Shown here: one piece after another, positions 11,154 through 27,747 of the stretch | Numbering within the stretch: the first letter of the stretch is position 1 | How the letters are laid out: every line of letters starts with the position of its first letter | The notes under the pieces: model-generated | What the model was told of the DNA's origin: nothing | The model's input: only the letters and a program-made list of their open reading frames with translations | Databases searched by the model: none | Source of the DNA: Planctomycetota bacterium | Lineage (GTDB): Bacteria > Planctomycetota > UBA8742 > UBA2392 | Assembly: GCA_003576915.1 (NCBI GenBank) | Contig: QEVF01000009.1 | Span: 17,638-81,637, forward strand | Direction: 5' to 3' | DNA length: 64,000 nucleotides | Translations under genes and position numbers: made by a program

Positions 11154-11771
11154 TCAAGGCCGTCGGGGTAGCCGCCCCAGAGCATCCATGAATTTGAACG
11201 TCATTTCATACTCGGGCATCCGGGCCTTCTTGCGGTCCTTGTTGACGGCATGAACCACGTCGATACCCAGCACCACAAAGGCCCAGGGCGCGGTCTGGCC
11301 TGAAGCGCCCTCACGGGCGCTGCCGGCAAAGCTGACTTCTATTTTCTCGATGACGGCTCCGCTCTGCATGATGCTGCGCTCGACGGCTTCCTTGACCGCG
11401 CCGAACACCCGCCGATAGGGCTCGCGGGAAGCGGCAACGCCCGCGTCGCGGCCGCTGCGCGGCAGCAGGTCAGAGAGAGCGACGCGGGAGTTCTCGACCA
11501 CGCGCCTGCCCCTGGACCCCAGCGCCACGACAAACTGGCCCTGGCCGGCCGCAGCGTCCCACTCGCAATAGAGGGTAACCTGCTCGCGCATGACGGGGGG
11601 TGCGCCGGTGAGCCCGTCCTTGGTGCTCAGGTTCGACTCCATGACCAGCTCCTCAGGCCTGAAGTGGGTGCAGACGATGAAGAAGATGAGCAACTGGAAC
11701 ACACAGTCGATCATCGGGGTCATGTCAAAGGTTGGGTGGCTTTCGCTGCGTCTTCTCCTGCGAACGAGCAT
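11154..11771 (-). CDS. exbD: ExbD/TolR-family protein with extended C-terminal domain (paralog 3)
   Basis: MLVRRRRRSESHPTFDMTPMIDCVFQLLIFFIVCT aligns residue-for-residue with the two upstream paralogs. GGAGA lies 6 nt upstream of the ATG at 11771. Confidence 0.8.
   Translation of the reverse strand: MLVRRRRRSESHPTFDMTPMIDCVFQLLIFFIVCTHFRPEELVMESNLSTKDGLTGAPPVMREQVTLYCEWDAAAGQGQFVVALGSRGRRVVENSRVALSDLLPRSGRDAGVAASREPYRRVFGAVKEAVERSIMQSGAVIEKIEVSFAGSAREGASGQTAPWAFVVLGIDVVHAVNKDRKKARMPEYEMTFKFMDALGRLPRRP
11670..11730. repeat. Copy 1 of a ~61-nt near-identical segment shared by the three exbD paralogs
   Basis: gcagacgatgaagaagatgagcaactggaacacacagtcgatcatcggggtcatgtcaaag differs at 2 positions from the copy at 12970-13030. 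Confidence 0.9.
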
Positions 11772-11893
11772 GGGAAGTCTCCATGTGGAAGGCCTCCCCG
11801 GGAAATGCTGCAAACGGCACCGCCGCCGGCCTGTTCGAAAAAAGCGGCGCGGGCGCGATGATCTCGCGCCCGCGCCCTCCCTGATTGCACGTG

Positions 11894-12538
11894 TTACTTC
11901 GCGGCGCCGCCGCCGCCGGGCTTCATGCCGGCGGTGCGTCCGTAGGCGTCAGCGAACTTGAAGGTCACGCTGAGTTCCGGCTTGTTGGCCGCCTTGCGCT
12001 TGGTGTTGATTTCGGAGGAGGCGTCAATGGCCATGGAGACGAACATCCACGGCGCCGTGCCCGAAGAGACGCCCGCCACGGCGTTCTTGGCGAAGCTGAT
12101 TTCCAGCTTCTCAATCTTGGCGCCGCTGCGCTCGATGTAGTTCTCAACGGCGTCCACGAGAGCCTTGTGCACCGTGCGGTAGCGGTTCTTCTTCTCGGCA
12201 ATGCTGCCCATGCCGTCGCCGTCCATCACCACGATATCCAGCAGGCCCATGCGGGTGCCCTCCACCACTTTGCGGCCGCGGGCGCCGATGGCAACGACGT
12301 ACTGGTTTGTGGCCGTGGCTTCATCCCAGTCGCAGTAAACCGTGATCTGCTCCTTGGGCAAAGCCGCCGCCGCGCTGAGACCTTCATCGGTGGGCAGGTC
12401 GGCGCGCATGGAGCGCTCCTCCTGTTTGAAGCGGGTACACACGATGAAGAAGATGAGCAACTGGAACACGCAGTCGATCATGGGCGTCATGTCGAACGTG
12501 GGTGTCTTGTCGTCGCGCCTTCTGCGTTTGAGTGCCAT
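11894..12538 (-). CDS. exbD: ExbD/TolR-family protein with extended C-terminal domain (paralog 2)
   Basis: MALKRRRRDDKTPTFDMTPMIDCVFQLLIFFIVCT. The C-terminal ~130 aa resemble those of paralog 3. Confidence 0.8.
   Translation of the reverse strand: MALKRRRRDDKTPTFDMTPMIDCVFQLLIFFIVCTRFKQEERSMRADLPTDEGLSAAAALPKEQITVYCDWDEATATNQYVVAIGARGRKVVEGTRMGLLDIVVMDGDGMGSIAEKKNRYRTVHKALVDAVENYIERSGAKIEKLEISFAKNAVAGVSSGTAPWMFVSMAIDASSEINTKRKAANKPELSVTFKFADAYGRTAGMKPGGGGAAK
12438..12496. repeat. Copy 2 of the exbD N-terminal nucleotide repeat
   Basis: The core acgatgaagaagatgagcaactggaacacgcagtcgatcat is identical to copy 3. Confidence 0.85.
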
Positions 12539-12565
12539 GTTCTGCTCCGGTTCTGAAGAAAGGAA

Positions 12566-13102: not shown

Positions 13103-13849
13103 TTAGCCCTGCTGCTGGGCGGCGTAACCCGAGATCGTGGTCAGCATCTCGTCCACCACCAACGCCACGGAGTTCACGATGTCGTTGGCCTTGTTCTTGA
13201 AGAACCAGTAAGCCACGATGCCGGGAATCGCGATGCAGAGACCCACAACGGTCGAGAGCAGCGCCAGGGCGATACCGCCCGACACCATCTTCGGGTTTAC
13301 CTGGCCGCCAGGCGCGTTCTCAATGGTGGCAAATGTATCCACCATGCCTGTCACCGTGCCGAACAGACCCATCATGGGGCCAATGGCCACACACACCGAA
13401 ATGGGGCCCAGATGGCGATCGAGCTTCTCGCCCTCAATGCTGAACTGGAACGAAGCTGCGTCCTTGGCGGCGTCAGGGCCGGCCGAAACCTTGTTCAGGG
13501 CCGCGGCAATGGAGCGCGTCAGCATGTTCGGGGTCGCCTCACAGTACTGCAGCGCACCCTCGAGGTCGCCTTCGTCGATGTAGTTCTGGAGCGCTGCAAT
13601 GCACTCCGGCGCCACCAGCTTGTCGCGGCGCACATTGACGAAGCACTCGATAATCCACCCGAACAGGAAGATGGACGTCAAGAGAATCATGCTCTGCGTC
13701 AGAATGCCGAACCAGCCCGACGGAATACCGAGCAGCTTCTCGCCCAGCGAATAGCTTGGCATTTCTTCCGCCAGCAGGGCGGGCGCAAAGGCCGACGCCA
13801 AGCCGAACGCGGCAATGACGAACAACGCGTGCTTGTGCTTCTGGAACAT
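13103..13849 (-). CDS. exbB: MotA/TolQ/ExbB proton-channel protein
   Basis: Three TM helices and the family block GPMMGLFGTVTGMVDTF. Confidence 0.85.
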   Translation of the reverse strand: MFQKHKHALFVIAAFGLASAFAPALLAEEMPSYSLGEKLLGIPSGWFGILTQSMILLTSIFLFGWIIECFVNVRRDKLVAPECIAALQNYIDEGDLEGALQYCEATPNMLTRSIAAALNKVSAGPDAAKDAASFQFSIEGEKLDRHLGPISVCVAIGPMMGLFGTVTGMVDTFATIENAPGGQVNPKMVSGGIALALLSTVVGLCIAIPGIVAYWFFKNKANDIVNSVALVVDEMLTTISGYAAQQQG

Positions 13850-14121
13850 GTGAGCCTCTCAGGCAGGGTTGACCATCGCCCAGGTACGGACGCCGTAGCC
13901 GGGCAAAATCAGGGATTACGATGACAAACGGCCAAGGCCGCGGGCGGTTCAAAAAAACTGCCTGGCAGAGCCGGAACCAGGGCCGCCCAAGACCTGGCTG
14001 GTCGTTGAAGACGTGGCATCGGCCACACTTTCAACCTGGTCGGGGCCTCGCTGAATCGGGCCCCACCTCTGATTCAAGCGGCGTTTCAGCCCCCTGAAAC
14101 GCGCAAGCCATCCATGGCCTG

Positions 14122-15453
14122 CTAGGATTTGAAGCGGTCGATAGCCTTGGTGATTTCCGCCACTTTGGGGTCGTTGGCGGCGTTCGTGTTGCCCAAAGTT
14201 GTGCGCAGCTCAAACATGTAACGTTCGGCCGTTTCCGCGTGGCGCTTGGCGACTTCCTTATCCTTGGCCAGCTTGGCCATCTCCGCGCAGGCATTGGCCG
14301 CGCCCAGCAGCGCGAGGCTTCGGAAGTCCGCGTCGCCCGCAAACACCGACAGGGAATTGGCGTAGCTTTGCAGCGCCAGCGCCCAGTCATCGGAATTCTT
14401 GGCGTTGGCCGAGCGCACCATGCCCATGCCGAGATAGGAACCACAAACCTGGTAGGCGGCATCCTGGGTGATCCAGTTGTTCTTGGGCGGGCTCTTTACC
14501 GCCTTCTGCTCGGCCTCCCACTCGCGGATCGGGGCCGAAAAGCGCGACTGGGCGCCCGTCGGATTGCCCTCCTGCACCAGCAGGAAACCCACCTTCAGAC
14601 CCGCCTGAATCGAATCACGGCTTGGCCGGCCGCCGTTGCGCTTGAGCGCAGCCGACGCCAGCTTCTCATAGATCTCACGGGCACGCTTCACGCCGTCCTT
14701 GCTGGCTTCCGCCAGCGCGCCCGCGGCGCGCAGGGCCCGGATGGACCAGTCAATGTATTCGGGCCGGGCCGACTTCTGATTGAGCGCGAGGGTCAGTTCC
14801 TCCAGCTTGCCGTACCCCTTGGAGAAGGCTTCATCGTTCTTGCCGTCGCGGGCCAGGGCGTCGCCCAGACCCTCCAGCGCATCCAGATACAGGCGGTGGA
14901 GGTTCCCGGCCTCCTTCACCGCGGCCCCGGTGGGCGACGCAAAAGCCACGCCGCGCACGGGGTTCGACGGGATGTTGGGCTTGTTGGCGCCCAGCGCCGC
15001 CGCCGCCTCTGCTTCCTTCAGGTAGGCCATGAACGCGGCAGCCGCGTCGGCAAACATGCCTTGAAGCAACTTGCCGCGCGCCACGAAGTAGAGAGAGCAG
15101 AGTTTGACGCGAAGTTTGTCGCCTTCGTCGGTCAGGCCCTTGGGCGGGTTGTCCAGGTAGCCCTGAGCGTCCTTTTCGAGGGCGTCGCCGCGGCCGGCGA
15201 GCAGCTTTTTGGCGAGGCCGTTGAACTGGTCCATGCCATTGAGCGTGTAACGCACCTGTTCGACGTCCCAGATGTCGATGCGCGAACCCGGCTGCCGGTT
15301 GGCGTCCTTCCACTCGATGCCGGACAGCGTCTCTGCCTCGATGGAGCGGAACGCGGTGGTGCTGCCATCTCTGCGCAGCACGGTGCCTTCTGCCGCAAAG
15401 AGGGCGGGCGAGAGTGCAAGGGCGCAGAGCGCGGTGAGTGCAAGCCTGTTCAT
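14122..15453 (-). CDS. Secreted helical/TPR-like repeat protein
   Basis: Signal peptide MNRLALTALCALALSPALFA. The rest is alpha-helical repeat-like (A/L/K/E rich). Confidence 0.6.
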   Translation of the reverse strand: MNRLALTALCALALSPALFAAEGTVLRRDGSTTAFRSIEAETLSGIEWKDANRQPGSRIDIWDVEQVRYTLNGMDQFNGLAKKLLAGRGDALEKDAQGYLDNPPKGLTDEGDKLRVKLCSLYFVARGKLLQGMFADAAAAFMAYLKEAEAAAALGANKPNIPSNPVRGVAFASPTGAAVKEAGNLHRLYLDALEGLGDALARDGKNDEAFSKGYGKLEELTLALNQKSARPEYIDWSIRALRAAGALAEASKDGVKRAREIYEKLASAALKRNGGRPSRDSIQAGLKVGFLLVQEGNPTGAQSRFSAPIREWEAEQKAVKSPPKNNWITQDAAYQVCGSYLGMGMVRSANAKNSDDWALALQSYANSLSVFAGDADFRSLALLGAANACAEMAKLAKDKEVAKRHAETAERYMFELRTTLGNTNAANDPKVAEITKAIDRFKS

Positions 15454-15488: not shown

Positions 15489-18400
15489 TCAGCGCATTTT
15501 GAGTTTCTTCGCCTCGGCCTCGAGCTGATCGGCGGCCTTGGTCAGCCCGGCCTTGAACTTCTTGGTGTCCTCGTCTTCAAAGCCCAGATTCGGCAGGGCC
15601 TTGTTGCGCAGCAAGGTCAGCGTGTCGTCGACCTCGCGCTTGACCAGGACTTCGCTGGCCAGCTCTTCAATGCCCATGGCCTGCTTTCCGTACTTGCGCA
15701 GCCAGTCCGTGGTGAGCTGTCCCCAGGCCAGGAGGCTCTTGCGGTACTCCGGACGGTAGGGATGGTCGTCCAGCTGCGCAAAGCTTGTCCACTGGTCGAG
15801 GTGAATGCGGCGAGCACGCCAGAGGTAGTCGGCCTCGCTCTTGGGCAGGGCCTGGACCTTCTTGGGGTCGGCCTCAAGCCACACGTTGAACTGGTCTACA
15901 AAGGGCGGATACTCGACAGCGGGCCCCTTGAGGGCATGCAGTTCAAGGAAGATGGCAATCAGCGTGTCAATGGTGTCGAGGTAATACAGTTCGATCTGCG
16001 CCTTGAAGGTCAGCTCGAACAGGACGCCGCCGCGCTGGCTCTTGGCCATTTCGTTGACGTTGCGGACGATCACGAAGCAGTAGGCGCGCCGCATCAGCAC
16101 TGCCGCCTTCTTGAGATCCTCCACGTTGCGGCTTTCCTTGTACTGCTCAAAGTAGGCGCGTCCGAGCTGGTACTTCAGCTCCAGCTCTTCGCCGCTCCTG
16201 GTTCCGCCGCACAGCGGAGGCTTGGCCTGGCGGTTGGTGGGAATCAGCAGCTCATTGCCGAAATACTTGCTCTTCTGGTGCAGGTCGAGGCACTGCTGGA
16301 GATAGAAGATGGCGCGCTTCCAGTCGCGGACACGGAAGTAGTTCTTGCCCAGAATCAGCAGGTCCGCCGGCGGCAACTCGGCGTTGCCGGAGCCGCGCGT
16401 TTCACGCCAGCGTTCGTAATAGGTGAGCACCTTGGTGAGCATGGGGCGCATGCGTTCATCGAGGCTGGCCGAAGTCTCCTCGAGAAAACCGCCGAAATCG
16501 TAGATGAAGGTCGTGCCCACGAAGTAGGCCAGGTGCGCGGTATTCAGGCTCACCTGGGTGTTCAGTGTGGCATACAGGCCGGCCTTGTCCGCGGGCAGCT
16601 TGGTGTCGCGGGCCTGGGCGTCCAGCCGGTCCAGCAGTTCCGTGTTGGCGCCGGTCGTCAGCTTCTGGGCGTCGGAACGGATGGAGTCATAGGCCTTGTC
16701 CTTGATCAGCGCGTCAAACTCGGCGCGCACGGCATCGCCCCAGCGCTTGGGGTAGGACTCCGCGTACTCCTTCCAGCGTTTCTCCAGGATGGGCAAGAGC
16801 TCCGGCGTCACCAGCGTGGCGACGTTCTTGTCCGTGCCCAGGGCGACTTTGACCAGCCACTCATCCCAGAAGTGCTGGGCGAGGAGGCGGTGCTTTTCGA
16901 GCGTGTTCTTGGCGGCGTTGTACTTGTCCAGCTTTTCCTTGTTGGAGCCCAAGGCGCCCTCAGACTTGAAAAGGCCGATCTTGAGCTGGTTGAACAGCGA
17001 GCGGAGATTGGTGGAGGCGTTGGTCAGTGCCTGGGTGCGCGGATTGAGGGTGTCGATGAAAATGGTGTAGATGCGGGCAATCATGTCCGCGATCTTCTTC
17101 TTCTGGTCGGGGAAGGCGGCCTCGTAGGCGCGCAGCAGTGCCTCGGCGCCGTCGCCGTCCTGCTCTTCCGCCAGGCCCCAGAAGGAAAGCTCGATGACCG
17201 CGCGCTGCACCTCCGCCGCCGAAGCGAAGTGGGAGCCAAACAGGTCCCAGTGGCGCTTGAGGATCGTGAGCGCCGTGGCGCGGTTGGCGTTGCGCAACTC
17301 GTCGCGCTTGGCGTCGGATTTGGCGGGATTGCGCATCAGAAAGGCGTACCAGTAGGCCGCACGGCCCATCATTTCCATTTCATCGCTGGGCTGCCGCGAA
17401 CGCTCGGGCTGCTGCTTCCAGCGCTCCTGCATGACTTCCGCGACGGCCAGGAAACACTGCACGAGGTTGTCCTTGTCGGGGCTGACGCGCTCCTTGATGT
17501 CGTCCCAGTTGCGCAGCACCACCACCAGCATGTACTTCTTGAAGTAATAGACGGCCTTGTGCCACATGGCGACATCGACCTTGAGGGCCGTGTCGGCCAT
17601 GGCGGCAAAGTGGGCTTCCTCCTGCTTCTCCCAGATCTGCTTGGGCAGGCCCTCGAAGTCGCGGGCGTGGCGGGCCTTCTGCTCCGCAAAGAACTCCGCC
17701 GTTTCCTGCTCATTGGCCTCGCCGGAGCGGCTGGGGTGGCGGGCGGCAGCGTCCTCAATCTGGTTGGCATAGGCCGTGGCCGCAAAATACATGGCGATGC
17801 GGAACTTCTTGTAGCGCACCGGCAGCGAGGCATAGCGCACGGCGGCCTGGGAGAACTTCTTGGCGTTGTAAAGCTTGCCGGCGTTGGCAAAGGCTAGGTC
17901 GTTGACGGCGTCTTCGCCGCCGAGCTTGGCCTTGAAGTCGTCAGCCTCGGTCTTGAGGCCTTCAAACGTCTTGTTGCCGGGCTCCCCGAACTTGCCGCTC
18001 ACCAGCCAGCCGGCGACCTTGGAGTAGGCCTTGGCCATTTCGCCGGGAAAGTCATAGGCCGACTTGGTGTCGGTGATCAGGTCGCACATGTTCTTCATGT
18101 GGTCCGGCACGGGCTGGCCCGCCTCGGGGGCGGTGTCGCCGTTGTCCTTGCCGAACTTGTAGACGAAGTACCACGTGCGCAGGCAGGCCTCACGATAGGC
18201 CATGGCGCCATCGACGTAACGATGCAGCAGATCAGAGTAGATCGTGGCGATCTTTGAGAAGCACTCGGGCGCATAGGTTTCAAACGACTGCACGCTGGTG
18301 CACTCCGCCAGCAGCAACTGGTAGGCGCGCAGCACCTTCAGGATGGGCCCGTAGCCCACGATCACCGCGTCCTTGATCACGGCCTTGCCGCAGCGCAGGC

Positions 18401-19511
18401 GCAGCTCCGGCGAAACGCCCTCGCCCGCGCCGATGTCCGCCAGCACGGAAAGGGCCTGGCGCTTGAAGTTCAGGTCATTGTCGGATGCCAGCTTGAACAG
18501 CTCGTCCAGGGCCTGATTGATGTTGGCTCCCAGCCGAATCTGGGCGCTGATGCGGAACAGGTTGAAACGCTTGAAATCCGTGGCCAGCTCGCGAATGGAG
18601 CCGTACTGGGTGAACGCCTTCTGATACTGGTCGATGCACTGCTGCAGGAAGCGCCTTTCGTAGCCCAGATCGCCGGTCTGGAGTTCGGCGGCGCGCAACC
18701 AGCCGCGCAGGGCCTGGGACCCGACGTCAGGTCCGGGCGGGTAGTCCGCCAGCAGGCTGGGAATCTCGAGATACTTGGCGACGGCCCCCTCCGGGTTGCG
18801 CAGGGCAAGTTCGATATCGCCCAGCAGCAATACCGCGTCGATCCACTCCACACAGATGTCGAAGCTGAACTGCAGCTCGCTGACCTCGTTGGACGCCTGG
18901 CGGAAGAAGCCCACGCGCTCACTGCTGCCTTCCGGGTAGGTCAAGCCCTTCACATACAGCGAAACACAGATGTTCAGGAATGCCTGGCGATAGTTGTGAG
19001 CCAGCCTGCTGTTGTCCCAGAAAGCCGTGCCCAGCTCATTGCGCTTGGTTTCAAGGGAGCCGCGCTCTTCCTTGAGCGTGCCCAGGGCCTTGTCAACCAG
19101 GACGCGCGCACCCTCGGCGTTGAGGCGGGCCTTGGCCCGTGCCAGCTCGATGCGCAGAATGGCCAGCTCGATGCGGCCGTCCTGGTCTTCAGGGTTGCCG
19201 TAGACTTCCTCGGCGCTTTCGTAGCCTTTGCTCCGGGCGTCGAGGTCGCCGCTGCGCGAAAACTCGTCGTCGGCCTTGGCCTTGAACACGCGCGCGAGCG
19301 CCGAGCGCGCCCGGGACTTTTCGTCGTCTGTGCCGCGGTCCATCTGGCGGCGCAAAAGCTTCTCGGCCTCGTCGTACATCTTGAGGCGAACGCCCAGATA
19401 ATAGCCATAGTCCGAGAGATCCCGGGCCTCGGCCTGGCCCGCGCAAGCCCCCAGCGTGAGCATCAGGGCGAGCGTCGAGAAGATCATCAGATAACTGCCG
19501 CGTGTGAACAT
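15489..19511 (-). CDS. Very large (1340 aa) secreted helical/TPR-like repeat protein
   Basis: Signal-like N-terminus MIFSTLALMLTLGACAG. Protein-like composition throughout; the antisense ORF at 15762-17897 is compositionally a shadow. Confidence 0.7.
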   Translation of the reverse strand: MFTRGSYLMIFSTLALMLTLGACAGQAEARDLSDYGYYLGVRLKMYDEAEKLLRRQMDRGTDDEKSRARSALARVFKAKADDEFSRSGDLDARSKGYESAEEVYGNPEDQDGRIELAILRIELARAKARLNAEGARVLVDKALGTLKEERGSLETKRNELGTAFWDNSRLAHNYRQAFLNICVSLYVKGLTYPEGSSERVGFFRQASNEVSELQFSFDICVEWIDAVLLLGDIELALRNPEGAVAKYLEIPSLLADYPPGPDVGSQALRGWLRAAELQTGDLGYERRFLQQCIDQYQKAFTQYGSIRELATDFKRFNLFRISAQIRLGANINQALDELFKLASDNDLNFKRQALSVLADIGAGEGVSPELRLRCGKAVIKDAVIVGYGPILKVLRAYQLLLAECTSVQSFETYAPECFSKIATIYSDLLHRYVDGAMAYREACLRTWYFVYKFGKDNGDTAPEAGQPVPDHMKNMCDLITDTKSAYDFPGEMAKAYSKVAGWLVSGKFGEPGNKTFEGLKTEADDFKAKLGGEDAVNDLAFANAGKLYNAKKFSQAAVRYASLPVRYKKFRIAMYFAATAYANQIEDAAARHPSRSGEANEQETAEFFAEQKARHARDFEGLPKQIWEKQEEAHFAAMADTALKVDVAMWHKAVYYFKKYMLVVVLRNWDDIKERVSPDKDNLVQCFLAVAEVMQERWKQQPERSRQPSDEMEMMGRAAYWYAFLMRNPAKSDAKRDELRNANRATALTILKRHWDLFGSHFASAAEVQRAVIELSFWGLAEEQDGDGAEALLRAYEAAFPDQKKKIADMIARIYTIFIDTLNPRTQALTNASTNLRSLFNQLKIGLFKSEGALGSNKEKLDKYNAAKNTLEKHRLLAQHFWDEWLVKVALGTDKNVATLVTPELLPILEKRWKEYAESYPKRWGDAVRAEFDALIKDKAYDSIRSDAQKLTTGANTELLDRLDAQARDTKLPADKAGLYATLNTQVSLNTAHLAYFVGTTFIYDFGGFLEETSASLDERMRPMLTKVLTYYERWRETRGSGNAELPPADLLILGKNYFRVRDWKRAIFYLQQCLDLHQKSKYFGNELLIPTNRQAKPPLCGGTRSGEELELKYQLGRAYFEQYKESRNVEDLKKAAVLMRRAYCFVIVRNVNEMAKSQRGGVLFELTFKAQIELYYLDTIDTLIAIFLELHALKGPAVEYPPFVDQFNVWLEADPKKVQALPKSEADYLWRARRIHLDQWTSFAQLDDHPYRPEYRKSLLAWGQLTTDWLRKYGKQAMGIEELASEVLVKREVDDTLTLLRNKALPNLGFEDEDTKKFKAGLTKAADQLEAEAKKLKMR

Positions 19512-22418: not shown

Positions 22419-22611
22419 AATTGCTCCACAGCGTCGGGGAACCCGGGGACGCAGCGTGAGGGGATAGAGTTTCTTTGGGGGCCTTTAATGTAGCTGCGAG
22501 GGGCAGCCTGTCAACAACCTGCATGGCAATGCGCGTCATTGATGCGTCATGGCTCCAGACGAAGGGAGCCCCGCCACGGCGGGGCCCCGACCTCGTGAGA
22601 ACAACGCTCCA

Positions 22612-24561
22612 TCAGCGGTCGACGTAGTGGACGCCGAAGATGTCCATCTGGGCCGAGCCCAGTTTGACCACGCGCTTGTCCACGCCTTCGAACGTGAGGC
22701 CAGTCTCACTGGAAACGTCCAGAAGAGCCAGCTTGGCGATATCGGCGGGTCTCACTGCCACGCCGCCATCGGTGAAGCACTGCACCATGCCTGCCGTGCC
22801 GGCCAGTTTCTTGATGCCGGCGGCATCCAGGCCGATGGACTCCCCCTTCTTGACGTCATGCATCACCACGACGCGGTACCAGCGACTGTCCACCTGTTTC
22901 CAGATGGTCAGCTCAAAGCGGGCATTGCCGGCCTTGCCGTTGGCGGAGTAAACGCGCATGGCAATGGGGTTGGTCATGCCCGCGGGATCGGTGTTTTCGA
23001 TGGAGGGCGCGTCCTTGGTGTCACGAGGCAGCACAAAGCGCGTGCCCGAACGATCGGACAACTCGAGGTCCGAGCCGGAGAAACCGGAGAGGGCCCAGGG
23101 CGTCGTGAAGTCCAGGGTATCCTTCATGGAGGAAAGGGACTTGAGCAGGTCGGCGCTGGGTTTGCCCTCGGCATCGAGAACCCGTACTTCCCGCTCCTTG
23201 AGGGCTGCGAAGTTGTAGCGGCCGCCCAGTTGGTTGGCCCCATCAAGCACGAGCGACTCGACGATTTCCACACGGCGCCACTCGCCCCCCACCTCGGCAA
23301 ACCGGGAGAGGCGAACCTTGGCGTCCTGAGTGCCCTTGGACTGCCATGAGAGGTACACGCGGTTGTACAGCACCACGGGGCGGTGGGCCTGCTCGGCGCG
23401 CTCGGACGTCTTGAAGCCTTCCACGAACTTGTCGTCAGACTTCAAGCCGGCCTTCAGCTTCTCCTTGGTGGTGGCGCGCACCGCATAACGGTACGTCGTT
23501 TCGGTATTGAACGTGGTATCGACGAAGCTGGTCTCCGTCACGGGCGACGGCGTGATCAGCTCCCAGTCCGAAGGTTCCGGCGGACGCGTGGGCTTGGCAT
23601 CCTTGGTTTCGAGTTCGTAGTCGCGCTCTGATTTGCCCTTGTTGCCTTCGGTCTTCTGCCAGGCCGTAAAGCGAGCGCGCCACTTGCTTTCGGCGTCGCG
23701 GTAACGGGGCAGATCTTCCCGGTTATAGCGCGTCTTGCGGGCATCGGCGTCGGTGGGACTGAAGCGCTCAACCCAGTAGGCAAGGTCCGACGGAGCGTCT
23801 TTGATGCTGGGCGCATTCCAGGTGATCGTAATCTTGAAGTTACGGGCATCGGCCACGGCCACGACGCTATCCGGCGCAGCGAGGTCAAACTCCGTCACGG
23901 TGGGAGCAGCTCCGGCAATGAATTCGTCGAAATTCAGGAAGCTGTCGCCATCGGCGTCCTTGGACTTGAAATCGCTCTTGCCCGAGGCGGCATACTCGGA
24001 CTCGGTCAGCTTCCCGTCCTTGTTGCGGTCGAGATCGTCAAACTGCTTGCGGCGGGGGTCCACTTCACGCTCGTTGTACTCATCTTCGTCGAGCGAACCG
24101 ATGGGCGCGCGCTTGTCCAACTCATCGAAAGTGCGACCCTGACGGGCCTTCCTGGTCTTGTCGAACTCGTCGCGCGAGAGTTTGCCATCGCGGTTTTCAT
24201 CGGCTGCGGCGAAATCCAGCCCCTCCGTCGCGCCCAGCACTACGCGAAACTGCAGGGGCAGATCGAGCGCCTTACGCTCGTTCGCGACGGGACCGGCCAC
24301 GGGCACTTTGCCCGCGGGGCCGAGGCCCGCTGCCGCGCCGTCAATGCCCTGAGCCATGAACTTCACGTTGCCGGTCACCTTGGGGTCGTTGAGCTTGCTG
24401 TTGACCTGGGCCACGGTGTCGGCGATGGTCCGGGCGGGCTTGTCGGTGTCGCCGACGAGAAAGACCGCCAGAATGAAGACAATCATGAGCACGGCGCCGA
24501 GTACCGGCGCACCCATGGGTCCGTGCTTGATAAGGGCGCTGCTCTTGTTGGGTTCTGCCAT
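22612..24561 (-). CDS. Bitopic protein with three EF-hand-like Ca-binding loops and a large beta-rich C-terminal region
   Basis: AGGAGG lies 7 nt upstream of the ATG at 24561. TM helix GAPVLGAVLMIVFILAVFLV. The loops are DENRDGKLSRDEF, DRNKDGKLTESEY, DADGDSFLNFDEF. Confidence 0.7.
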   Translation of the reverse strand: MAEPNKSSALIKHGPMGAPVLGAVLMIVFILAVFLVGDTDKPARTIADTVAQVNSKLNDPKVTGNVKFMAQGIDGAAAGLGPAGKVPVAGPVANERKALDLPLQFRVVLGATEGLDFAAADENRDGKLSRDEFDKTRKARQGRTFDELDKRAPIGSLDEDEYNEREVDPRRKQFDDLDRNKDGKLTESEYAASGKSDFKSKDADGDSFLNFDEFIAGAAPTVTEFDLAAPDSVVAVADARNFKITITWNAPSIKDAPSDLAYWVERFSPTDADARKTRYNREDLPRYRDAESKWRARFTAWQKTEGNKGKSERDYELETKDAKPTRPPEPSDWELITPSPVTETSFVDTTFNTETTYRYAVRATTKEKLKAGLKSDDKFVEGFKTSERAEQAHRPVVLYNRVYLSWQSKGTQDAKVRLSRFAEVGGEWRRVEIVESLVLDGANQLGGRYNFAALKEREVRVLDAEGKPSADLLKSLSSMKDTLDFTTPWALSGFSGSDLELSDRSGTRFVLPRDTKDAPSIENTDPAGMTNPIAMRVYSANGKAGNARFELTIWKQVDSRWYRVVVMHDVKKGESIGLDAAGIKKLAGTAGMVQCFTDGGVAVRPADIAKLALLDVSSETGLTFEGVDKRVVKLGSAQMDIFGVHYVDR

Positions 24562-24617
24562 GTCCGGCCCTCCTGCGGGGCTTGCTGTTGCGTAAGTTCC
24601 TGTGGGCTGCGTGGGGC

Positions 24618-25652
24618 TTATTGGTCGGCCGGCGCGGCTTGGGCCTTGATGCCGGGCACCCACCGGGGATTGGCGCGCAGCGCTGACAACTTGAGTTCAA
24701 AGCGCATGGACACGCCGTAAACCGTTTCAGCCTCGAGCTTGCGGGCGACTTCCGCGCGCTTGGCGTTGTCCCACTGTTCATCGGTGACGTCCGGGGGAAT
24801 TTCCCACTTTGCGCGCTCTTCGGCCGAAATCTCGTAGCCCGTGTCATGGGCCCGCGACGACTGGAAGCCTGTCAGGGAGACCAGCTCAAGGGGCAGTCCT
24901 TCGCGTTTGCCGCCGCGGGACTCCATGGTGGCGTTTGAGGGCACGAGCAGGCTGTCCGTGATCGCCAGGGCCAGGCTCGGCGAAGCGTTGAACACGAACT
25001 GGAACTCGTGGCGCAGCCAGGGTTCCTTCTCTTCCGCCTGGGGTTCGTTGTTGAAGCTTCCGAACTCGAACTTCCTGAAGCTGAAGGGAGCTGAGGCGTA
25101 TTCCGGCATGGCCTTGAGGCACTCACACACCACGAGCACTTCGGCCATCACGCGCAGGCGCGCCTGCATCATCAGGATTTCAGGCTGCTGGATACGGCGC
25201 ATGTCCGAGGCGGTCTGCTCCCAGAAGCGCGCGCCCTCATTTTCTTCGGGCTGCATCTTGCGACCCAGCTTGACCAGCAAGTTAGGAAGAGGCCATTCCG
25301 CCTCCAGGGCCTGAAAGCGCATCTGCAATGCAGAGATGGTGCGCGAGGCGTCGTTGTTGAAGTCGTCAGGCGTGGCGTAGGTCTTGTCAAAACGCAGCAG
25401 GGCCTTGCCCTGGTTGCTTTCCCAGTCCGCGCGGAACTTCTCGACCTCCGCGATGAAGCGGGCCTGGCGAGCCTGGATGTCCTTGACGTCTCCCGCCGAA
25501 GGGATGGACTGCTTGGCCGCAGCCTGGAGCTTGCCGGCGGCCGCCGTCAGGTCGCTTTCGGCACCGGACTTGACCATGACCCCGACGCCCGTCATGACCA
25601 GGCCCAGGAAGCCGAGCACACCGAAGAGGATGAAATGCAGTGAGTCCTTCAT
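24618..25652 (-). CDS. Bitopic membrane protein (occupies the PilO/PilP position)
   Basis: AGGAG lies 8 nt upstream of the ATG at 25652. TM helix FILFGVLGFLGLVMTGVGVMV. No motif recognised. Confidence 0.55.
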   Translation of the reverse strand: MKDSLHFILFGVLGFLGLVMTGVGVMVKSGAESDLTAAAGKLQAAAKQSIPSAGDVKDIQARQARFIAEVEKFRADWESNQGKALLRFDKTYATPDDFNNDASRTISALQMRFQALEAEWPLPNLLVKLGRKMQPEENEGARFWEQTASDMRRIQQPEILMMQARLRVMAEVLVVCECLKAMPEYASAPFSFRKFEFGSFNNEPQAEEKEPWLRHEFQFVFNASPSLALAITDSLLVPSNATMESRGGKREGLPLELVSLTGFQSSRAHDTGYEISAEERAKWEIPPDVTDEQWDNAKRAEVARKLEAETVYGVSMRFELKLSALRANPRWVPGIKAQAAPADQ

Positions 25653-25692
25653 GAGTCCAACTCCTGTTTGCCGCTTCAGCAAAAGGTCCGGG

Positions 25693-27747
25693 TTACTGGT
25701 TTGATGCGTCCGCCGGAGGAGGCGGGGGCTCAATGGCGTCCAGCTTCAGCGTGACCTGAACGCGGAAGGGGGCAAAGAACCGCTTGTCCAGCTTCGTGCG
25801 ATCGCCCAGGGTGTCCAGCACGAACGGCTTGCCGGGAATGCCGGCGCCCAGCAACAGCGCGGTGTTGCCCGGCGTGACATCGGAGAGAACCTTGATGGTC
25901 AGGTTCTCCCACTTGATCTCCTTGATCACCTGCTCGCTCAGACCCTCAAGCTGGTTGCTGGCCTTGAGTTCAGCCAGCAGGGCCGCGGCCAGCTTCTGGG
26001 CCACCAGTCCGCCGTTGCCGTCGCGCCCGCCGACCAGCACTTCCGCCGCGCGATCCACCGCCGACGCCTGCTGCGAGGCCAGTTGAACCATGGCGCCCAG
26101 GGAGGCCTCGTAGCGAAGCTCCCGTTTGGCCGTGAAGTAGCGCGGCGCCTCGGGGTTCGCGGCTTCGCCCGCAGCGGGCGCCTGCAGGGGCACGAGGGCC
26201 GTTTCATAGAGCGTGGGCTTGAGCACCATGGCGGCGTTGCCGCTGCCTTCACCGGGATTGTTGATGCGCAGGACCCTGTCATCCTTGCTGGATTCGGCGT
26301 ACTCGGCGATGGCCGTGTCCACGGCCCGCGCCACCAGCCCCGGCAGCATGCGCACGGGCAACTCGAAGTATCGGGTTTCCTCCCGCGCCGGCTCGCCCTG
26401 CGTGCCCGGCACGGTGTACTTGACCATGCCCACGCGGCCCAGGGCCAGGTTCTTGAAGCTGCGCGCCCTCAACTCGTTTTCTTCGTTCTGCTGGGCCAGG
26501 GCCACGGCGCCGGTGGCTGCCGAAACGTCGGCCTCGGCCTTGGTGGCCGGCGCGATCTTCTCTTCCTTGCCGCCCGCGGCCCCCACACCCAGCACCAGGG
26601 CCACCAGTCCGCCCACGAACATCATGGCGCCCGCGGCAATCATGGGCACCTTGAGCTTGGCCTTTTCGCGAGCCTCCAGGCGCTCGCGCGGCATCAGGTT
26701 GATGGTGTTCAGGCCGGCCACGCCGAGGGCCTCCAGGCCCAGGCCAATGGCCACCGTGAGGCTCTGGATGTTGTCCTGGACTTCCGCGGGGTCCACGCTG
26801 CGCGAAAGCTGGAGCCTGGCCGGCGTTTCAACCTTGTGAACCTTGTATTGAAGCTGCTGCTCGAAGAACTTCTGGATGTTGATGAGCTTGGAGCCGTTGC
26901 CCATCATCACCAGCTGGTTGATGTTCGCGCTCTCGTTCTGGCTCTTGTAGAAGCCCACGGCGCGATAGATCTCACCCACCATTTCCTTCAGCGGCGGCTT
27001 CATGGCCTCGAACACCGCTGCCGCGTCTTTGCTCTTCGCTGCGCGGCGCTTGAGTTTTTCAGCGTCGTCGTCGGAGAGCTTGAAGCGGGCCTTCAGGGCC
27101 TTGGTGATGTCGTTGCCGGCCACGGGCACCACGCGCACATAGGTCTTCTGGCCGTCAATCACCACGAGGTCGGTGTTTTCCGCGCCGATGTCAATGGCAA
27201 CGCAGCAGGAGCTCACGCCCTCGTCGAGTTCGAACTTGATGTAGTTGTAGATGCCCAGGGGGGCCACCTGGATGCCCGTGATTTCGAGGCCCGCGGCCTC
27301 GCAGGCATCCACAATTTCCTCTACGGCCTGCTTCTTGGCCGCATACAGGTTGACCTTGCGCTCATCGACGGCGGTCGGATCGTCGATGGTCTGGTAGTCC
27401 CACACAGCCTGGTCCAGGGGAATCGGCACCTGAGACTTGGCTTCGTTTTCGATGGTCTCGCGGACCTTCTCGTCGCTCACGGGCGGCAGGCTGATGATGC
27501 GGCCCAGCGTGTTCTGGCCCTTGATCGAGACATACACCGGCTCGCCACGCTTGATGCCGTTGGCCACGCGGAATGCCGCCAGGGCCGCCGAGGTGGCATC
27601 CGCCACGCTGGCGCCGCCGGCCAAACCATAGTCATTGAGGCTGACAATGCTGATGGTATCGAGGGTGACTGTGCCGCGGTCCTCCGTGAGTCGAACCGCC
27701 TTGATGCTCGATGTGCCGAGCTCAATGCCCCAAGCTGTTTTCGCCAT
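25693..27747 (-). CDS. PilM-like actin-fold domain fused to a TM helix and a ~300-aa periplasmic domain (PilM/PilN-like fusion)
   Basis: WGIELGTSSIKAVRL and IDIGAENTDLVVIDG are the PilM/FtsA-like phosphate-binding motifs. TM helix MIAAGAMMFVGGLVALVLGVGAAG lies at about residue 365. Confidence 0.75.
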   Translation of the reverse strand: MAKTAWGIELGTSSIKAVRLTEDRGTVTLDTISIVSLNDYGLAGGASVADATSAALAAFRVANGIKRGEPVYVSIKGQNTLGRIISLPPVSDEKVRETIENEAKSQVPIPLDQAVWDYQTIDDPTAVDERKVNLYAAKKQAVEEIVDACEAAGLEITGIQVAPLGIYNYIKFELDEGVSSCCVAIDIGAENTDLVVIDGQKTYVRVVPVAGNDITKALKARFKLSDDDAEKLKRRAAKSKDAAAVFEAMKPPLKEMVGEIYRAVGFYKSQNESANINQLVMMGNGSKLINIQKFFEQQLQYKVHKVETPARLQLSRSVDPAEVQDNIQSLTVAIGLGLEALGVAGLNTINLMPRERLEAREKAKLKVPMIAAGAMMFVGGLVALVLGVGAAGGKEEKIAPATKAEADVSAATGAVALAQQNEENELRARSFKNLALGRVGMVKYTVPGTQGEPAREETRYFELPVRMLPGLVARAVDTAIAEYAESSKDDRVLRINNPGEGSGNAAMVLKPTLYETALVPLQAPAAGEAANPEAPRYFTAKRELRYEASLGAMVQLASQQASAVDRAAEVLVGGRDGNGGLVAQKLAAALLAELKASNQLEGLSEQVIKEIKWENLTIKVLSDVTPGNTALLLGAGIPGKPFVLDTLGDRTKLDKRFFAPFRVQVTLKLDAIEPPPPPADASNQ

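What the first reader, a model, noticed from the sequence alone, without database searches (positions are those of the whole stretch)
11154..27747. Secretin plus PilM/N/O-like scaffold co-linear with an ExbB and 3x ExbD proton-motive motor and giant TPR proteins, with no ATPase, pilin or TonB
Ten co-directional genes are closely spaced, with three intergenic gaps of about 190-270 nt:
- PilM-PilN-like fusion
- bitopic protein
- EF-hand protein
- lipoprotein secretin with an N-terminal TPR region
- 1340-aa helical-repeat protein
- 443-aa helical-repeat protein
- ExbB
- three ExbD paralogs

Known secretin machines (T2SS, T4P, T3SS, competence, filamentous phage) are powered by cytoplasmic ATPases. 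Known ExbBD/TolQR/AglRQS/GldLM motors energise TonB, Tol, gliding or T9SS, not secretins. I see no GspE/PilB/PilT-type ATPase, no prepilin (no G|F-x-x-x-E N-terminus) and no TonB C-terminal domain in the cluster. From gene order I infer a PMF-driven secretin-based envelope machine (secretion, uptake or surface-structure assembly) that may be a distinct system type.
Basis: inference. Interest (0 to 1): 0.75.

Follow-up and report, generated by a model that had tools for sequence, protein, structure and literature searches.

The report
Conserved secretin plus ExbBD-motor gene cluster
An uncultured group of Planctomycetota keeps the genes for an outer-membrane secretin channel and its PilM/PilN scaffold next to giant periplasmic TPR proteins and an ExbB/ExbD proton motor, which resembles a fused version of the two Akkermansia "mucin utilization" loci and points to a proton-powered, secretin-based transport machine that has not been shown biochemically.

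Summary
All ten genes are present on the minus strand with the stated domains. No T4P/T2SS ATPase, PilC, prepilin or TonB domain occurs anywhere in the 64-kb window.

- **Extent.** The block is larger than reported. It continues through a YdjY-domain lipoprotein, a membrane protein and myo-inositol-1-phosphate synthase.
- **Conservation.** The order of all 13 genes is the same in every related locus that is long enough (19 species-level Planctomycetota MAGs plus one metagenome contig). The flanks differ.
- **Second clade.** In a clade whose ExbB is about 40% identical, TPR-secretins flank a TPR-TPR-ExbB-ExbD-ExbD core.
- **Transcription.** This is not one operon. Each 120-270-nt gap holds a hairpin plus a conserved promoter. 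The promoters are sigma-70-like before PilMN and the secretin. They are ECF-like (TGAACC-N14-CCGTT) before T1340, ExbB and ExbD3.

PilM and the secretin score best against the Akkermansia Amuc_1101 and Amuc_1098 families (MUL2). Akkermansia MUL1 carries ExbB/ExbD next to mul1A. The two modules are therefore already linked genetically to glycan import.

ATPase independence is unproven. A more distant relative places the same TPR-ExbBD module directly behind pilB-pilB-pilT-pilC.

Verdict: a new variant of a known kind, interest about 0.6.

The parts
27871..27900 (-). P1: conserved sigma-70-like promoter (CTTGACG-N..-GGCCATGCT) ahead of PilMN, followed by a conserved 5'UTR
   Evidence: Alignment of upstream regions from 19 loci. 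It is the only exact match in the window.
25693..27747 (-). PilM-PilN fusion: cytoplasmic PilM actin-like domain, INLMP PilN motif, TM 370-388, about 300-aa periplasmic domain
   Evidence: Best NCBIfam hit is Amuc_1101_fam (E 1.7e-59, below cutoff). TIGR01175 PilM is above its cutoff.
24618..25652 (-). g371: bitopic inner-membrane protein (344 aa from ATG 25652) with an invariant K-x-x-L-H at the TM edge, long helices and a C-terminal alpha/beta domain. It occupies the PilO / Amuc_1100 position.
   Evidence: The Foldseek lead to Amuc_1100 and PilO is not significant.
22612..24561 (-). EFh: bitopic protein with four conserved periplasmic EF-hand Ca2+-binding loops
22558..22597 (-). GC-rich hairpin just after EFh (dG -28 kcal/mol). 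Position-conserved in relatives.
22487..22514 (-). P2: sigma-70-like promoter TTGACA-N16-TACATT ahead of the secretin, conserved in all loci, followed by a C-rich conserved 5'UTR
19713..22418 (-). Lipoprotein secretin with N-terminal TPR region, STN and a C-terminal secretin domain
   Evidence: Best NCBIfam hit is Amuc_1098_fam (126 bits, cutoff 750).
19665..19704 (-). Hairpin / terminator-like element after the secretin. A GC-rich hairpin is found in the secretin-to-T1340 gap of 18 of 19 relatives examined.
19607..19631 (-). P3: ECF-type promoter motif TGAACC-N14-CCGTT ahead of T1340
   Evidence: (two matches in 64 kb against 0.08 expected)
15489..19511 (-). T1340: 1340-aa periplasmic lipoprotein, alpha-helical/TPR. 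The family is restricted to Planctomycetota MAGs.
14122..15453 (-). T443: secreted protein with an N-terminal segment that Pfam does not assign and a C-terminal TPR region
13927..13951 (-). P4: ECF-type promoter motif TGAACC-N14-CCGTT ahead of ExbB, inside the 272-nt gap
13103..13849 (-). ExbB/TolQ/MotA-family proton-channel subunit with an N-terminal signal-like helix and three TM helices
12566..13072 (-). ExbD1 (short type, 168 aa) with the TM Asp
11894..12538 (-). ExbD2 (long type, 214 aa) with the TM Asp and a divergent, strongly conserved periplasmic domain
11841..11880 (-). Strong intrinsic-terminator-like hairpin (13-bp stem, dG -34 kcal/mol, T-tract) after ExbD2
11812..11837 (-). P5: ECF-type motif CGAAC-N16-CCGTTT ahead of ExbD3 (exact TGAAC in the 95% relative L003)
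11154..11771 (-). ExbD3: second long-type (ExbD2-like) paralog. Start corrected to the ATG at 11771.
10279..11046 (-). YdjY-domain lipoprotein, always present after the ExbD genes
9191..10282 (-). g363: membrane protein overlapping the YdjY stop. tblastn detects it in 12 of the 17 distinct lineage loci that extend that far.
7979..9172 (-). myo-inositol-1-phosphate synthase. It is the last conserved gene of the block and is tightly coupled to g363.

Best explanation
The block encodes one envelope-spanning apparatus built from two co-evolving modules.

**Module A (sigma-70-like promoters).** This is a type-IV-pilus-like alignment complex without pilus genes. It has four parts:
- a PilM-PilN fusion;
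- a PilO-position bitopic protein;
- a bitopic Ca2+-binding EF-hand protein;
- a lipoprotein secretin carrying its own TPR region, which I read as pilotin-like.

**Module B (ECF-like promoters).** This is a 5:2-type proton motor with periplasmic partners. It has three parts:
- ExbB with a short and a long ExbD type. Every lineage locus that extends past the ExbD genes has at least one of each, which suggests an ExbD1/ExbD2 heterodimer;
- two periplasmic TPR proteins (T1340 lipoprotein and T443);
- a YdjY lipoprotein and a membrane protein.

**Proposed mechanism (inferred).**
- Proton flow through ExbB/ExbD is transmitted to the periplasmic face of the secretin.
- The route would be the long ExbD periplasmic domains and the TPR scaffold.
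- The effect would be to gate the channel or pull substrate through it.
- The secretin would thus play the part that a TonB-dependent barrel plays in Ton systems.
- By analogy with the Akkermansia MUL1/MUL2 loci, the most likely job is uptake of large glycans or other macromolecules into the periplasm.

**Shown versus inferred.** Shown here: domain identities, topology, conserved gene order and promoter architecture. Inferred: physical coupling, the direction of transport and independence from ATPases.
For: **Component identities and topology**
-.

**Conserved gene order in the lineage**
- The order PilMN-g371-EFh-secretin-T1340-T443-ExbB-ExbD(2-4)-YdjY-g363-Ino1 is the same in all 20 distinct lineage loci, as far as each contig extends.
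- Identity is as low as 23-44% (g371) and 34-57% (T1340).
- Flanks on both sides are not conserved.

**A second arrangement of the same association**
- The second clade has ExbB 39-44% identical.
- Its layout is UDG-[three small genes, optional]-TPR-secretin-~945-aa TPR-~350-aa TPR-ExbB-ExbD-ExbD-second secretin.
- Five contigs show it (TPR hits).

**No Ton or Tol partners**
- No TonB_C, TolA/TolB/Pal or TonB-dependent receptor is found in the cluster or the window.
- ExbB fails the NCBIfam TolQ cutoff (70 against 221 bits) and the ExbB cutoff (54 against 206 bits).

**Shared promoter motif in module B**
- T1340-T443, ExbB-ExbD and ExbD3-YdjY-g363 carry the same rare promoter motif.
- There are two exact matches in 64 kb against 0.08 expected. 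Both lie in the right gaps and are conserved across loci.
- This ties the giant TPR proteins to the motor.

**Link to Akkermansia**
- PilMN and the secretin score best against Amuc_1101 and Amuc_1098.
- A. muciniphila Amuc_0543-0548 holds mul1A plus ExbD and ExbB, next to a UDG-family gene, as here.
- MUL genes (pili plus a periplasmic complex) are reported to be needed for mucin transport.

**Family size**
- The T1340 family has only 27 hits among 1.84 billion representatives.
- Every hit for which a source name was retrieved is a Planctomycetota MAG.
Against: - There is no experimental or structural evidence here for contact between motor and secretin. The single-sequence AlphaFold models of g371 and T443 had pLDDT 52-54 and were uninformative.
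- The halves use different promoter types and are separated by hairpins, so they can be expressed independently.
- In the sister clade with the most similar ExbB (51-55% identity), ExbB-ExbD-ExbD sits beside fliS with no secretin within 10 kb. A T1340-like protein appears to lie elsewhere on the same 90.7-kb contig.
- Conservation within one lineage is partly inherited synteny. The housekeeping-looking Ino1 is conserved in the block too.
- Sequence homology between the TPR proteins of the two clades was not significant (hhalign E >= 0.004).
- Homology of T1340, T443, YdjY or g363 to Mul1A/Mul1B could not be tested.
- PilM usually partners PilB/PilT/PilC. One relative has those genes immediately upstream of the TPR-ExbBD module.
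Confidence: 0.45

Rival explanations
1. This is an ATP-driven type-IV-pilus-like or competence-like machine. Its PilB/PilT/PilC, pilins and prepilin peptidase are encoded elsewhere in the genome. The ExbBD/TPR module is only an accessory, for example for retraction-coupled uptake, secretin gating or regulation.
For: - The N-terminal domain is a genuine PilM, fused to the PilN motif that normally organises the ATPase and platform.
- Locus L025 has pilB-pilB-pilT-pilC followed directly by a 1363-aa TPR protein, a small TPR protein and ExbB-ExbD-ExbD.
- Akkermansia MUL2 is described as a type-IV-like pilus locus with a pilin-like Amuc_1102.
Against: - No ATPase, PilC, pilin or peptidase occurs in 64 kb here, nor in the +/-10 kb around the cluster in 20 related loci.
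- The L025 ExbB is only 34% identical, and its TPR proteins show no significant sequence match to T1340 or T443.
Confidence: 0.25
2. These are two unrelated envelope systems that happen to be neighbours. One is a secretin system. The other is a Ton/Tol-like ExbBD system serving outer-membrane integrity or receptors encoded elsewhere. They are kept adjacent by inherited synteny.
For: - The transcription units and promoter classes are separate.
- Ino1, an unrelated enzyme, is equally conserved in the block.
- UDG adjacency recurs in both clades and in Akkermansia, which suggests old inherited synteny.
- In the sister clade ExbBD is unlinked from a secretin.
- The ~360-aa TPR protein of the second clade weakly resembles the Tol-Pal protein YbgF/CpoB (E 4e-10, below cutoff).
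Against: - Two different gene arrangements in two deep clades both keep secretins touching the TPR-ExbBD core.
- Flanks turn over while the block does not.
- No TonB, TolA, TolB or Pal is found.
- Akkermansia genetics link the two modules to one phenotype.
Confidence: 0.2
3. This is a proton-powered, secretin-based export or surface-assembly system, for example for a fibre, an adhesin or polysaccharide, rather than an importer.
For: - Secretins characteristically export folded substrates or fibres (established knowledge).
- PMF motors drive export and surface movement in T9SS/GldLM and Agl-Glt (my knowledge).
- A secreted 509-aa protein gene lies divergently upstream.
Against: - No candidate substrate gene is conserved in the block. 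The 509-aa gene is absent from the close relative L004.
- The nearest studied analogue, MUL, is linked to uptake.
Confidence: 0.1

Closest known systems
Akkermansia muciniphila mucin utilization loci. MUL2 = Amuc_1098-1102 (secretin, Amuc_1099/1100, PilM-like Amuc_1101, pilin-like Amuc_1102). MUL1 = Amuc_0543-0548 (mul1A/B plus ExbD and ExbB).
   Same: - PilMN and the secretin score best against the Amuc_1101 and Amuc_1098 family models.
- The gene order PilM-like, two bitopic or unknown proteins, then secretin mirrors Amuc_1101-1100-1099-1098.
- MUL1 combines unannotated proteins with ExbB/ExbD and lies next to a UDG-family gene, as here.
- Both MUL loci are reported to be required for mucin transport.
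   Different: - Here the two modules are fused into one conserved block in Planctomycetota.
- Scores are far below the equivalog cutoffs (202 against 650 bits; 126 against 750 bits).
- There is no Amuc_1102-like pilin and no Amuc_1099/1100 family hit.
- This cluster adds an EF-hand protein, a 1340-aa TPR lipoprotein, three ExbD paralogs, YdjY and Ino1.
- Homology to Mul1A/B could not be tested.
- The primary paper (Davey 2023) was not readable here.
Type IVa pilus alignment subcomplex PilMNOP-PilQ, with a TPR lipoprotein pilotin of the PilF/Tgl kind
   Same: - True PilM fold and PilN N-terminal motif.
- Bitopic partners in the PilO/PilP positions.
- A secretin.
- A TPR lipoprotein element, here fused to the secretin.
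   Different: - No PilB/PilT/PilC, pilins or prepilin peptidase in the cluster or the window.
- PilO and PilP are not detectable by sequence.
- An ExbBD motor is attached.
TonB-ExbB-ExbD and Tol-Pal (TolQRA-TolB-Pal-CpoB) systems
   Same: - An ExbB/TolQ-family channel plus ExbD/TolR-family subunits with the essential TM Asp.
- Periplasmic TPR partners reminiscent of CpoB/YbgF.
   Different: - No TonB/TolA-type transducer, TolB, Pal or TonB-dependent barrel.
- The ExbB/TolQ equivalog cutoffs are not met.
- ExbD paralogs have a novel periplasmic domain; only the TM region matches known ExbD/TolR.
- The outer-membrane partner would be a secretin.
Other accessory uses of 5:2 proton motors: Myxococcus Agl-Glt gliding complex (AglRQS with large TPR proteins GltD/GltE) and Bacteroidota GldLM/PorLM of the T9SS. 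Comparison from my own knowledge, not tested.
   Same: - One TolQ-like subunit with two or more TolR-like paralogs, together with giant periplasmic or cytoplasmic TPR scaffolds.
- PMF is used to power an outer-membrane machine.
   Different: - No Glt, Gld or Por family hits, apart from a weak PorW/SprE match in the second clade (E 4e-5).
- Those systems use beta-barrel or Sov/SprA translocons, not secretins.

Membership tests
Type IV pilus / T2SS-class secretin machine | Outer-membrane secretin (Secretin domain) | tested here: met
   PF00263 E 2.4e-30, above the gathering score. No PilQ, GspD, MshL or SctC equivalog cutoff is reached.
Type IV pilus / T2SS-class secretin machine | PilM actin-like protein bound to the PilN N-terminal motif | tested here: met
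   TIGR01175 scores 151 bits against a cutoff of 133. PDB PilM matches at E 1e-22. A conserved INL(I/M)P motif and TM helix are fused after PilM.
Type IV pilus / T2SS-class secretin machine | PilO / PilP (or GspL/M/C) partners | tested here: inconclusive
   Two bitopic proteins occupy the right positions. There are no Pfam, NCBIfam or PDB sequence hits. PilO and Amuc_1100 appear only as non-significant Foldseek hits to a low-confidence model.
Type IV pilus / T2SS-class secretin machine | Cytoplasmic hexameric ATPase (PilB/PilT/GspE) and platform protein (PilC/GspF) | tested here: not met
   No T2SSE/T2SSF hit in any sizeable ORF of the 64-kb window, nor in the called genes within +/-10 kb in related loci. 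The rest of the genome is not testable here.
Type IV pilus / T2SS-class secretin machine | Prepilin(s) with a class III signal peptide, and a prepilin peptidase | tested here: not met
   A six-frame regex search gave only one match, which is antisense and spurious. No pilin or peptidase Pfam hits. The rest of the genome is not testable here.
TonB system | ExbB and ExbD with the conserved TM Asp | tested here: met
   PF01618 E 4e-25. PF02472 E 1e-16, 7e-12 and 2e-8. The Asp in MIDCVF is invariant. The ExbB equivalog TIGR02797 scores 54 bits against a cutoff of 206, so that is not met.
TonB system | TonB (N-terminal anchor, Pro-rich spacer, TonB_C domain) and TonB-dependent receptors | tested here: not met
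   No TonB_C or TBDT hit in the cluster or the window. g371 has an invariant His at its TM edge but not the SHLS spacing.
Tol-Pal system | TolA, TolB and Pal alongside TolQ/TolR | tested here: not met
   TolQ TIGR02796 scores 70 bits against a cutoff of 221. TolR scores 21 bits against 127. No TolA, TolB or Pal hits.
Akkermansia MUL system (MUL2 part) | Amuc_1101-family PilM-like protein and Amuc_1098-family secretin | tested here: not met
   Both are the best-scoring NCBIfam families but lie far below the equivalog cutoffs: 202 against 650 bits and 126 against 750 bits. These are related proteins, not members.
Akkermansia MUL system (MUL2 part) | Amuc_1102 pilin-like, Amuc_1100 and Amuc_1099 proteins | tested here: not met
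   No NCBIfam hits for g371 or EFh. The gene upstream of PilMN is divergent and unrelated. There is only a non-significant fold lead to Amuc_1100.
Akkermansia MUL system (MUL1 part) | ExbB/ExbD genes beside Mul1A/Mul1B | not testable with these tools
   Akkermansia annotation comes from the supplementary table of PMC11480725 and from PMC12570417. The Akkermansia sequences could not be fetched, so homology of T1340, T443, YdjY or g363 to Mul1A/B is unknown.

The most novel reading that the evidence does not exclude
The cluster is a self-sufficient trans-envelope machine that needs no ATPase and no pilus. An ExbB5-ExbD2-type proton motor, acting through long ExbD paralogs and giant periplasmic TPR lipoproteins, opens or pulls substrate through a secretin. 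A PilMN/EF-hand cage anchors the secretin to the inner membrane. This would be a new class of PMF-energised secretin transporter. It could be a PVC-superphylum alternative to TonB-dependent/SusCD uptake of macromolecules. The two Akkermansia MUL loci would be the split version of the same machine.
Probability: 0.25. Interest if true: 0.85.

Novelty: new variant of a known kind. Interest (0 to 1): 0.62.

Why it matters
- **A mechanistic gap.** Secretins are known only as ATP-dependent conduits, and ExbBD motors only as drivers of TonB, Tol, gliding or T9SS. A conserved genomic pairing of the two would supply a missing link for how Akkermansia MUL1 (ExbBD) and MUL2 (PilM/secretin) could act as one importer.
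- **A candidate for macromolecule uptake.** PVC bacteria that lack SusCD-type systems still take up large glycans. This block is a concrete candidate for how they do it.
- **A testable set of partners.** The fused, strictly syntenic Planctomycetota version, with two TPR proteins, two ExbD types, an EF-hand protein and a YdjY lipoprotein, gives a defined list of proteins for complex prediction, pull-downs and cryo-ET.
- **A regulon marker.** The promoter map suggests a testable regulatory split: sigma-70-like for the conduit and ECF-like for the motor and scaffold. The motif TGAACC-N14-CCGTT can be used to search for further regulon members.

Tried and rejected
- **Primary literature.** Davey 2023 and Hughes 2025 are not held in the library. 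MUL composition was therefore taken from secondary papers and a supplementary table.
- **Literature search.** A search for secretin + ExbB + Planctomycet* found nothing relevant.
- **Profile comparison between clades.** hhalign of window-lineage profiles against the accessory proteins of the second clade and of L025 gave no significant match. The best was T1340 against the 946-aa TPR protein, E 0.004, N-terminus only.
- **PDB searches.** Sequence or profile searches for g371, T443, EFh, ExbD2 and the secretin N-terminus returned only generic or non-significant hits.
- **Structure prediction.**
  - Single-sequence AlphaFold2 of g371 and T443 gave pLDDT 54 and 52.
  - Foldseek on g371 gave no significant hit.
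- **Exhaustive search with T1340 (aa 1-1200).** Only 27 relatives were found. Every hit for which a source name was retrieved is a Planctomycetota MAG.
- **Metagenome scans.** Two scans for the distant T1340-like tier found nothing.
- **Antisense ORF.** The 553-aa ORF at 27935-29596 (minus strand) was rejected as an artefact of the real plus-strand gene.
- **Secretin 5'UTR.** It has no consensus RNA structure, and Rfam finds nothing in the cluster.
- **Hairpins as operon boundaries.** This was not accepted as proof. Equally strong hairpins sit between ExbB and ExbD1 in several relatives, so they may tune stoichiometry instead.

Full report
**1. Observation**

ORF listing and a GC3-guided gene call show an unbroken run of minus-strand genes from 27747 down to 1689. 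Pfam and NCBIfam scans of the ten reported proteins confirm every domain call.

| Gene (window coordinates) | Finding |
|---|---|
| 25693-27747 | PilM: PF11104 E 6e-39; TIGR01175 151 bits against cutoff 133; PDB PilM 3jc8 E 1e-22 |
| 22612-24663 | EF-hand protein |
| 19713-22418 | Secretin with TPR and STN domains and a lipobox |
| 15489-19511 | 1340-aa protein, weak TPR hits |
| 14122-15453 | 443-aa protein, no hit on its own |
| 13103-13849 | ExbB |
| three genes, 11154-13072 | ExbD paralogs |

- **PilM-PilN fusion.** The family alignment shows that the PilM domain is followed by the PilN-type INL(I/M)P motif. A TM helix (370-388) and about 300 periplasmic residues come next. 'PilM-PilN fusion' is therefore literally correct.
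- **Bitopic proteins.** g371 and EFh are bitopic. EFh keeps four DxDxDG loops across the family.
- **Periplasmic proteins.** T1340 and the secretin have lipoboxes. T443 has a signal peptide, and TPR is detected in 8 of its 15 family members.
- **ExbD paralogs.** All three keep the TM Asp.
- **Absences.** No T2SSE, T2SSF, pilin, peptidase, TonB_C, TolA/TolB/Pal or TBDT hit appears in any sizeable ORF of the window. A six-frame search for a prepilin-type N-terminus gave only an antisense artefact.
- **Corrected starts.** g371 starts at 25652, EFh at about 24561, ExbD3 at 11771 and YdjY at 11046.

**2. The block is larger and strictly conserved**

Downstream of ExbD3 lie three more genes:
- a YdjY-domain lipoprotein (NF040466, 80 bits against a cutoff of 50);
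- a 363-aa membrane protein;
- myo-inositol-1-phosphate synthase.

Homologues of T1340 exist only in uncultured Planctomycetota MAGs. An exhaustive search of 1.84 billion representatives found 27 relatives.

A scan of GTDB species representatives returned 19 loci. A metagenome contig was added. tblastn of the window proteins shows the same order in every locus, as far as each contig reaches:

PilMN - g371 - EFh - secretin - T1340 - T443 - ExbB - ExbD (2 to 4 copies, always at least one short and one long type) - YdjY - g363 - Ino1

| Protein | Identity range to the window protein |
|---|---|
| Secretin | 63-81% |
| ExbB | 60-88% |
| PilMN | 50-69% |
| T1340 | 34-57% |
| T443 | 36-59% |
| EFh | 27-47% |
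| g371 | 23-44% |

Sequence outside the block is not conserved. The exception is a UDG gene upstream in the closest full-length relative, L004. This pattern is what selection on the block would produce. Shared ancestry within one lineage also contributes.

**3. Beyond the lineage**

The secretin family drops sharply from at least 62% identity to a single full-length hit at 28%. Neighbourhoods of that hit and of more distant ExbB relatives fall into three patterns.

- **(a) A second clade, ExbB 39-44% identical, five contigs.**
  - The layout is UDG - [three unannotated genes, optional] - TPR-secretin - ~945-aa TPR protein - ~350-aa TPR protein - ExbB - ExbD - ExbD - (0 or 1 gene) - second secretin - HAD hydrolase (TPR hits).
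  - The secretin/TPR/ExbBD association therefore recurs in a different arrangement.
  - The TPR proteins of the two clades could not be linked by sequence profile. They do share architecture: a signal peptide, an N-terminal segment that reads as beta-rich (by eye, with a shared xxDGSxxxGxI pattern), and C-terminal TPR.
- **(b) Sister clade, ExbB 51-55% identical.**
  - ExbB-ExbD-ExbD plus a small gene lies beside fliS, with no secretin within 10 kb.
  - A T1340-like protein (27% identity) is recorded on an NCBI contig of the same length, 90,677 bp, so it is probably unlinked.
- **(c) L025, ExbB 34% identical.**
  - pilB-pilB-pilT-pilC is followed directly by a 1363-aa TPR protein, a 249-aa TPR protein, ExbB-ExbD-ExbD and a 509-aa membrane protein.

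Pattern (a) supports functional coupling. Pattern (b) shows that coupling does not require adjacency. Pattern (c) warns that the TPR-ExbBD module can accompany classical pilus ATPases.

**4. Transcription architecture**

- **Hairpins.**
  - GC-rich hairpins follow EFh (22597-22558), the secretin (19704-19665) and ExbD2 (11880-11841; 13-bp stem, T-tract).
  - A hairpin is found in the secretin-to-T1340 gap in 18 of 19 relatives.
  - Hairpins also occur after EFh, after ExbD2 and, in several loci, between ExbB and ExbD1.
- **Conserved promoters (upstream alignments across 18-19 loci).**

| Promoter | Motif | Window position |
|---|---|---|
| P1, before PilMN | CTTGAC(G/C)TTG-N11-GGCCATGCT | 27900-27871; unique in the window |
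| P2, before the secretin | GTTGACA-N16/17-TAnATT | 22514-22487 |
| P3, before T1340 | TGAACC-N14-CCGTT | 19631-19607 |
| P4, before ExbB | TGAACC-N14-CCGTT | 13951-13927 |
| P5, before ExbD3 | CGAAC-N16-CCGTTT | 11837-11812; exact TGAAC in L003 |

P3 and P4 are the only two matches to their motif in 64 kb, against 0.08 expected.

An 'AAC' -35 element with a 'CGT' -10 element is the hallmark of ECF sigma-factor promoters. That is my own knowledge, not something tested here.

I therefore read the block as five tandem units:
- U1: PilMN-g371-EFh
- U2: secretin
- U3: T1340-T443
- U4: ExbB-ExbD1-ExbD2
- U5: ExbD3-YdjY-g363-Ino1

The conduit half has sigma-70-like promoters. The scaffold and motor half has ECF-like promoters.

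The unit contains no TonB, however, and it shares its promoter class with the giant TPR genes. Hairpins between ExbB and ExbD1 in relatives show that hairpins alone do not prove operon boundaries. They may instead set stoichiometry.

**5. Comparison with known systems**

- **NCBIfam ranking.**
  - The Akkermansia families rank first for both PilMN (Amuc_1101_fam, E 1.7e-59) and the secretin (Amuc_1098_fam, E 1.3e-36).
  - Both scores are far below the equivalog cutoffs.
- **MUL2 in the literature.**
  - MUL2 (Amuc_1099-1102, adjacent to the secretin Amuc_1098) is described as a type-IV-like pilus locus.
  - It is needed, together with MUL1, for mucin transport and uptake.
  - mul1A is Amuc_0544.
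- **MUL1 annotation.** A supplementary expression table lists the following:
  - Amuc_0543, Amuc_0544 and RS02980: hypothetical proteins;
  - Amuc_0546: ExbD/TolR;
  - Amuc_0547: hypothetical protein;
  - Amuc_0548: MotA/TolQ/ExbB;
  - Amuc_0549: endonuclease III;
- **What this means.**
  - The two modules, PilM/secretin and periplasmic proteins plus ExbBD, are already tied genetically to one uptake phenotype in a PVC bacterium.
  - UDG also borders the module in the window (29654-30487), in L004 and in the second clade.
  - The window cluster is best described as a fused, elaborated relative of MUL1 plus MUL2.
- **Limits on membership.** Membership is not established:
  - the equivalog cutoffs fail;
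  - there are no Amuc_1099, Amuc_1100 or Amuc_1102 hits;
  - Mul1A/B homology could not be tested;
  - the primary paper was unavailable.
- **Ton and Tol.** Membership fails, because there is no TonB, TolA, TolB or Pal and the ExbB/TolQ cutoffs are not met.
- **Type IV pilus.** Membership is partial. PilM, the PilN motif and the secretin are met. ATPase, platform protein and pilins are not found in the window.

**6. Mechanism and confidence**

- **Best-supported reading (0.45).**
  - A two-module envelope machine in which the ExbB/ExbD motor acts on the secretin conduit, most likely for uptake of macromolecules.
  - Every locus that extends past the ExbD genes has a short and a long ExbD type, which suggests a heterodimer.
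  - The long type has a strongly conserved, novel periplasmic domain; only its TM region matches known ExbD/TolR.
  - The action on the secretin would pass through the periplasmic TPR lipoprotein scaffold.
  - The secretin conduit would be held by PilMN, g371 and EFh.
- **Shown.** Parts, topology, synteny and promoter motifs.
- **Inferred.** Contacts, direction of transport and the energy source.
- **Rivals.**
  - An ATP-driven pilus-like machine with ExbBD as an accessory (0.25).
  - Two independent neighbouring systems (0.20).
  - A PMF-driven exporter (0.10).
- **Structure prediction.** It could not help, because only single sequences were allowed and the models had pLDDT of about 53.

**7. 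Verdict**

It is also less unprecedented than claimed, because of the Akkermansia MUL loci.

- Novelty: new variant of a known kind.
- Interest: about 0.6.
- If ATPase independence and physical coupling were shown, it would rate much higher.

Noticed in passing
window 22419-22486 (5'UTR of the secretin gene): The leader is strongly conserved at the sequence level across 16-19 loci. It has four C-rich boxes (CCCCTCC, GACCCC, CGTCCCC, CCCCGACGGATGAGGAG). RNAalifold finds no consensus structure and Rfam has no hit. It could be a protein-binding or anti-Shine-Dalgarno element.
   Followed up: partly
window 27803-27870 (5'UTR of PilMN): Downstream of promoter P1 there is a conserved CCCCC box and a conserved short stem (ATTGGC-N4-GCCAAT in relatives). 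In the window this region folds at -20.8 kcal/mol. Function unknown.
   Followed up: partly
window 7979-9172: myo-inositol-1-phosphate synthase is the last gene of the conserved block in every locus that reaches that far. In many relatives it is separated from the membrane protein g363 by -4 to +28 nt. This suggests a possible link to inositol-containing lipids or glycans, or simply inherited synteny.
   Followed up: partly
window 29654-30487; L004, L024, L026, L027; A. muciniphila Amuc_0551: A uracil-DNA-glycosylase-family gene borders the cluster in the window, in the second clade and, by annotation, next to Akkermansia MUL1. This hints at very old shared synteny across PVC bacteria.
   Followed up: partly
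window 28124-29653 (+): A 509-aa secreted protein with no family hit lies between UDG and PilMN, divergent from the cluster. It is absent from the close relative L004, where UDG abuts PilMN. It looks like a lineage-specific insertion.
   Followed up: partly
L025:1-13308: pilB-pilB-pilT-pilC is followed, in the same orientation, by a 1363-aa TPR protein, a 249-aa TPR protein, ExbB-ExbD-ExbD and a 509-aa membrane protein. This is a type IV pilus ATPase set physically joined to a TPR-ExbBD module. The organism is unknown.
   Followed up: partly
L023:8365-13808 and L028:8664-12672: The ExbB proteins most similar to the window's outside its lineage (51-55% identity) sit divergently next to fliS. 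In L028 they are also near flhA and an SRP54-family (FlhF-like) gene. In L023 they are followed by an ECF sigma factor gene. L028 carries a CGAACC-N15-CCGTT motif upstream of ExbB.
   Followed up: partly
L024, L026, L029 and the P0069 contig: Loci of the second clade carry two different secretin genes flanking the TPR-ExbBD core. The window's secretin is most like the downstream one over its full length.
   Followed up: no
window 1689-5431 and 38082-39653: A DUF58 plus TgpA-like transglutaminase pair lies at the downstream end of the minus-strand gene run. A second transglutaminase-core protein lies elsewhere in the window. Neither is conserved next to the cluster in relatives.
   Followed up: no
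window 54536-54608 (-): A single tRNA gene, the only Rfam hit in the window. It lies next to a MerR-family regulator at 53831-54274.
   Followed up: no
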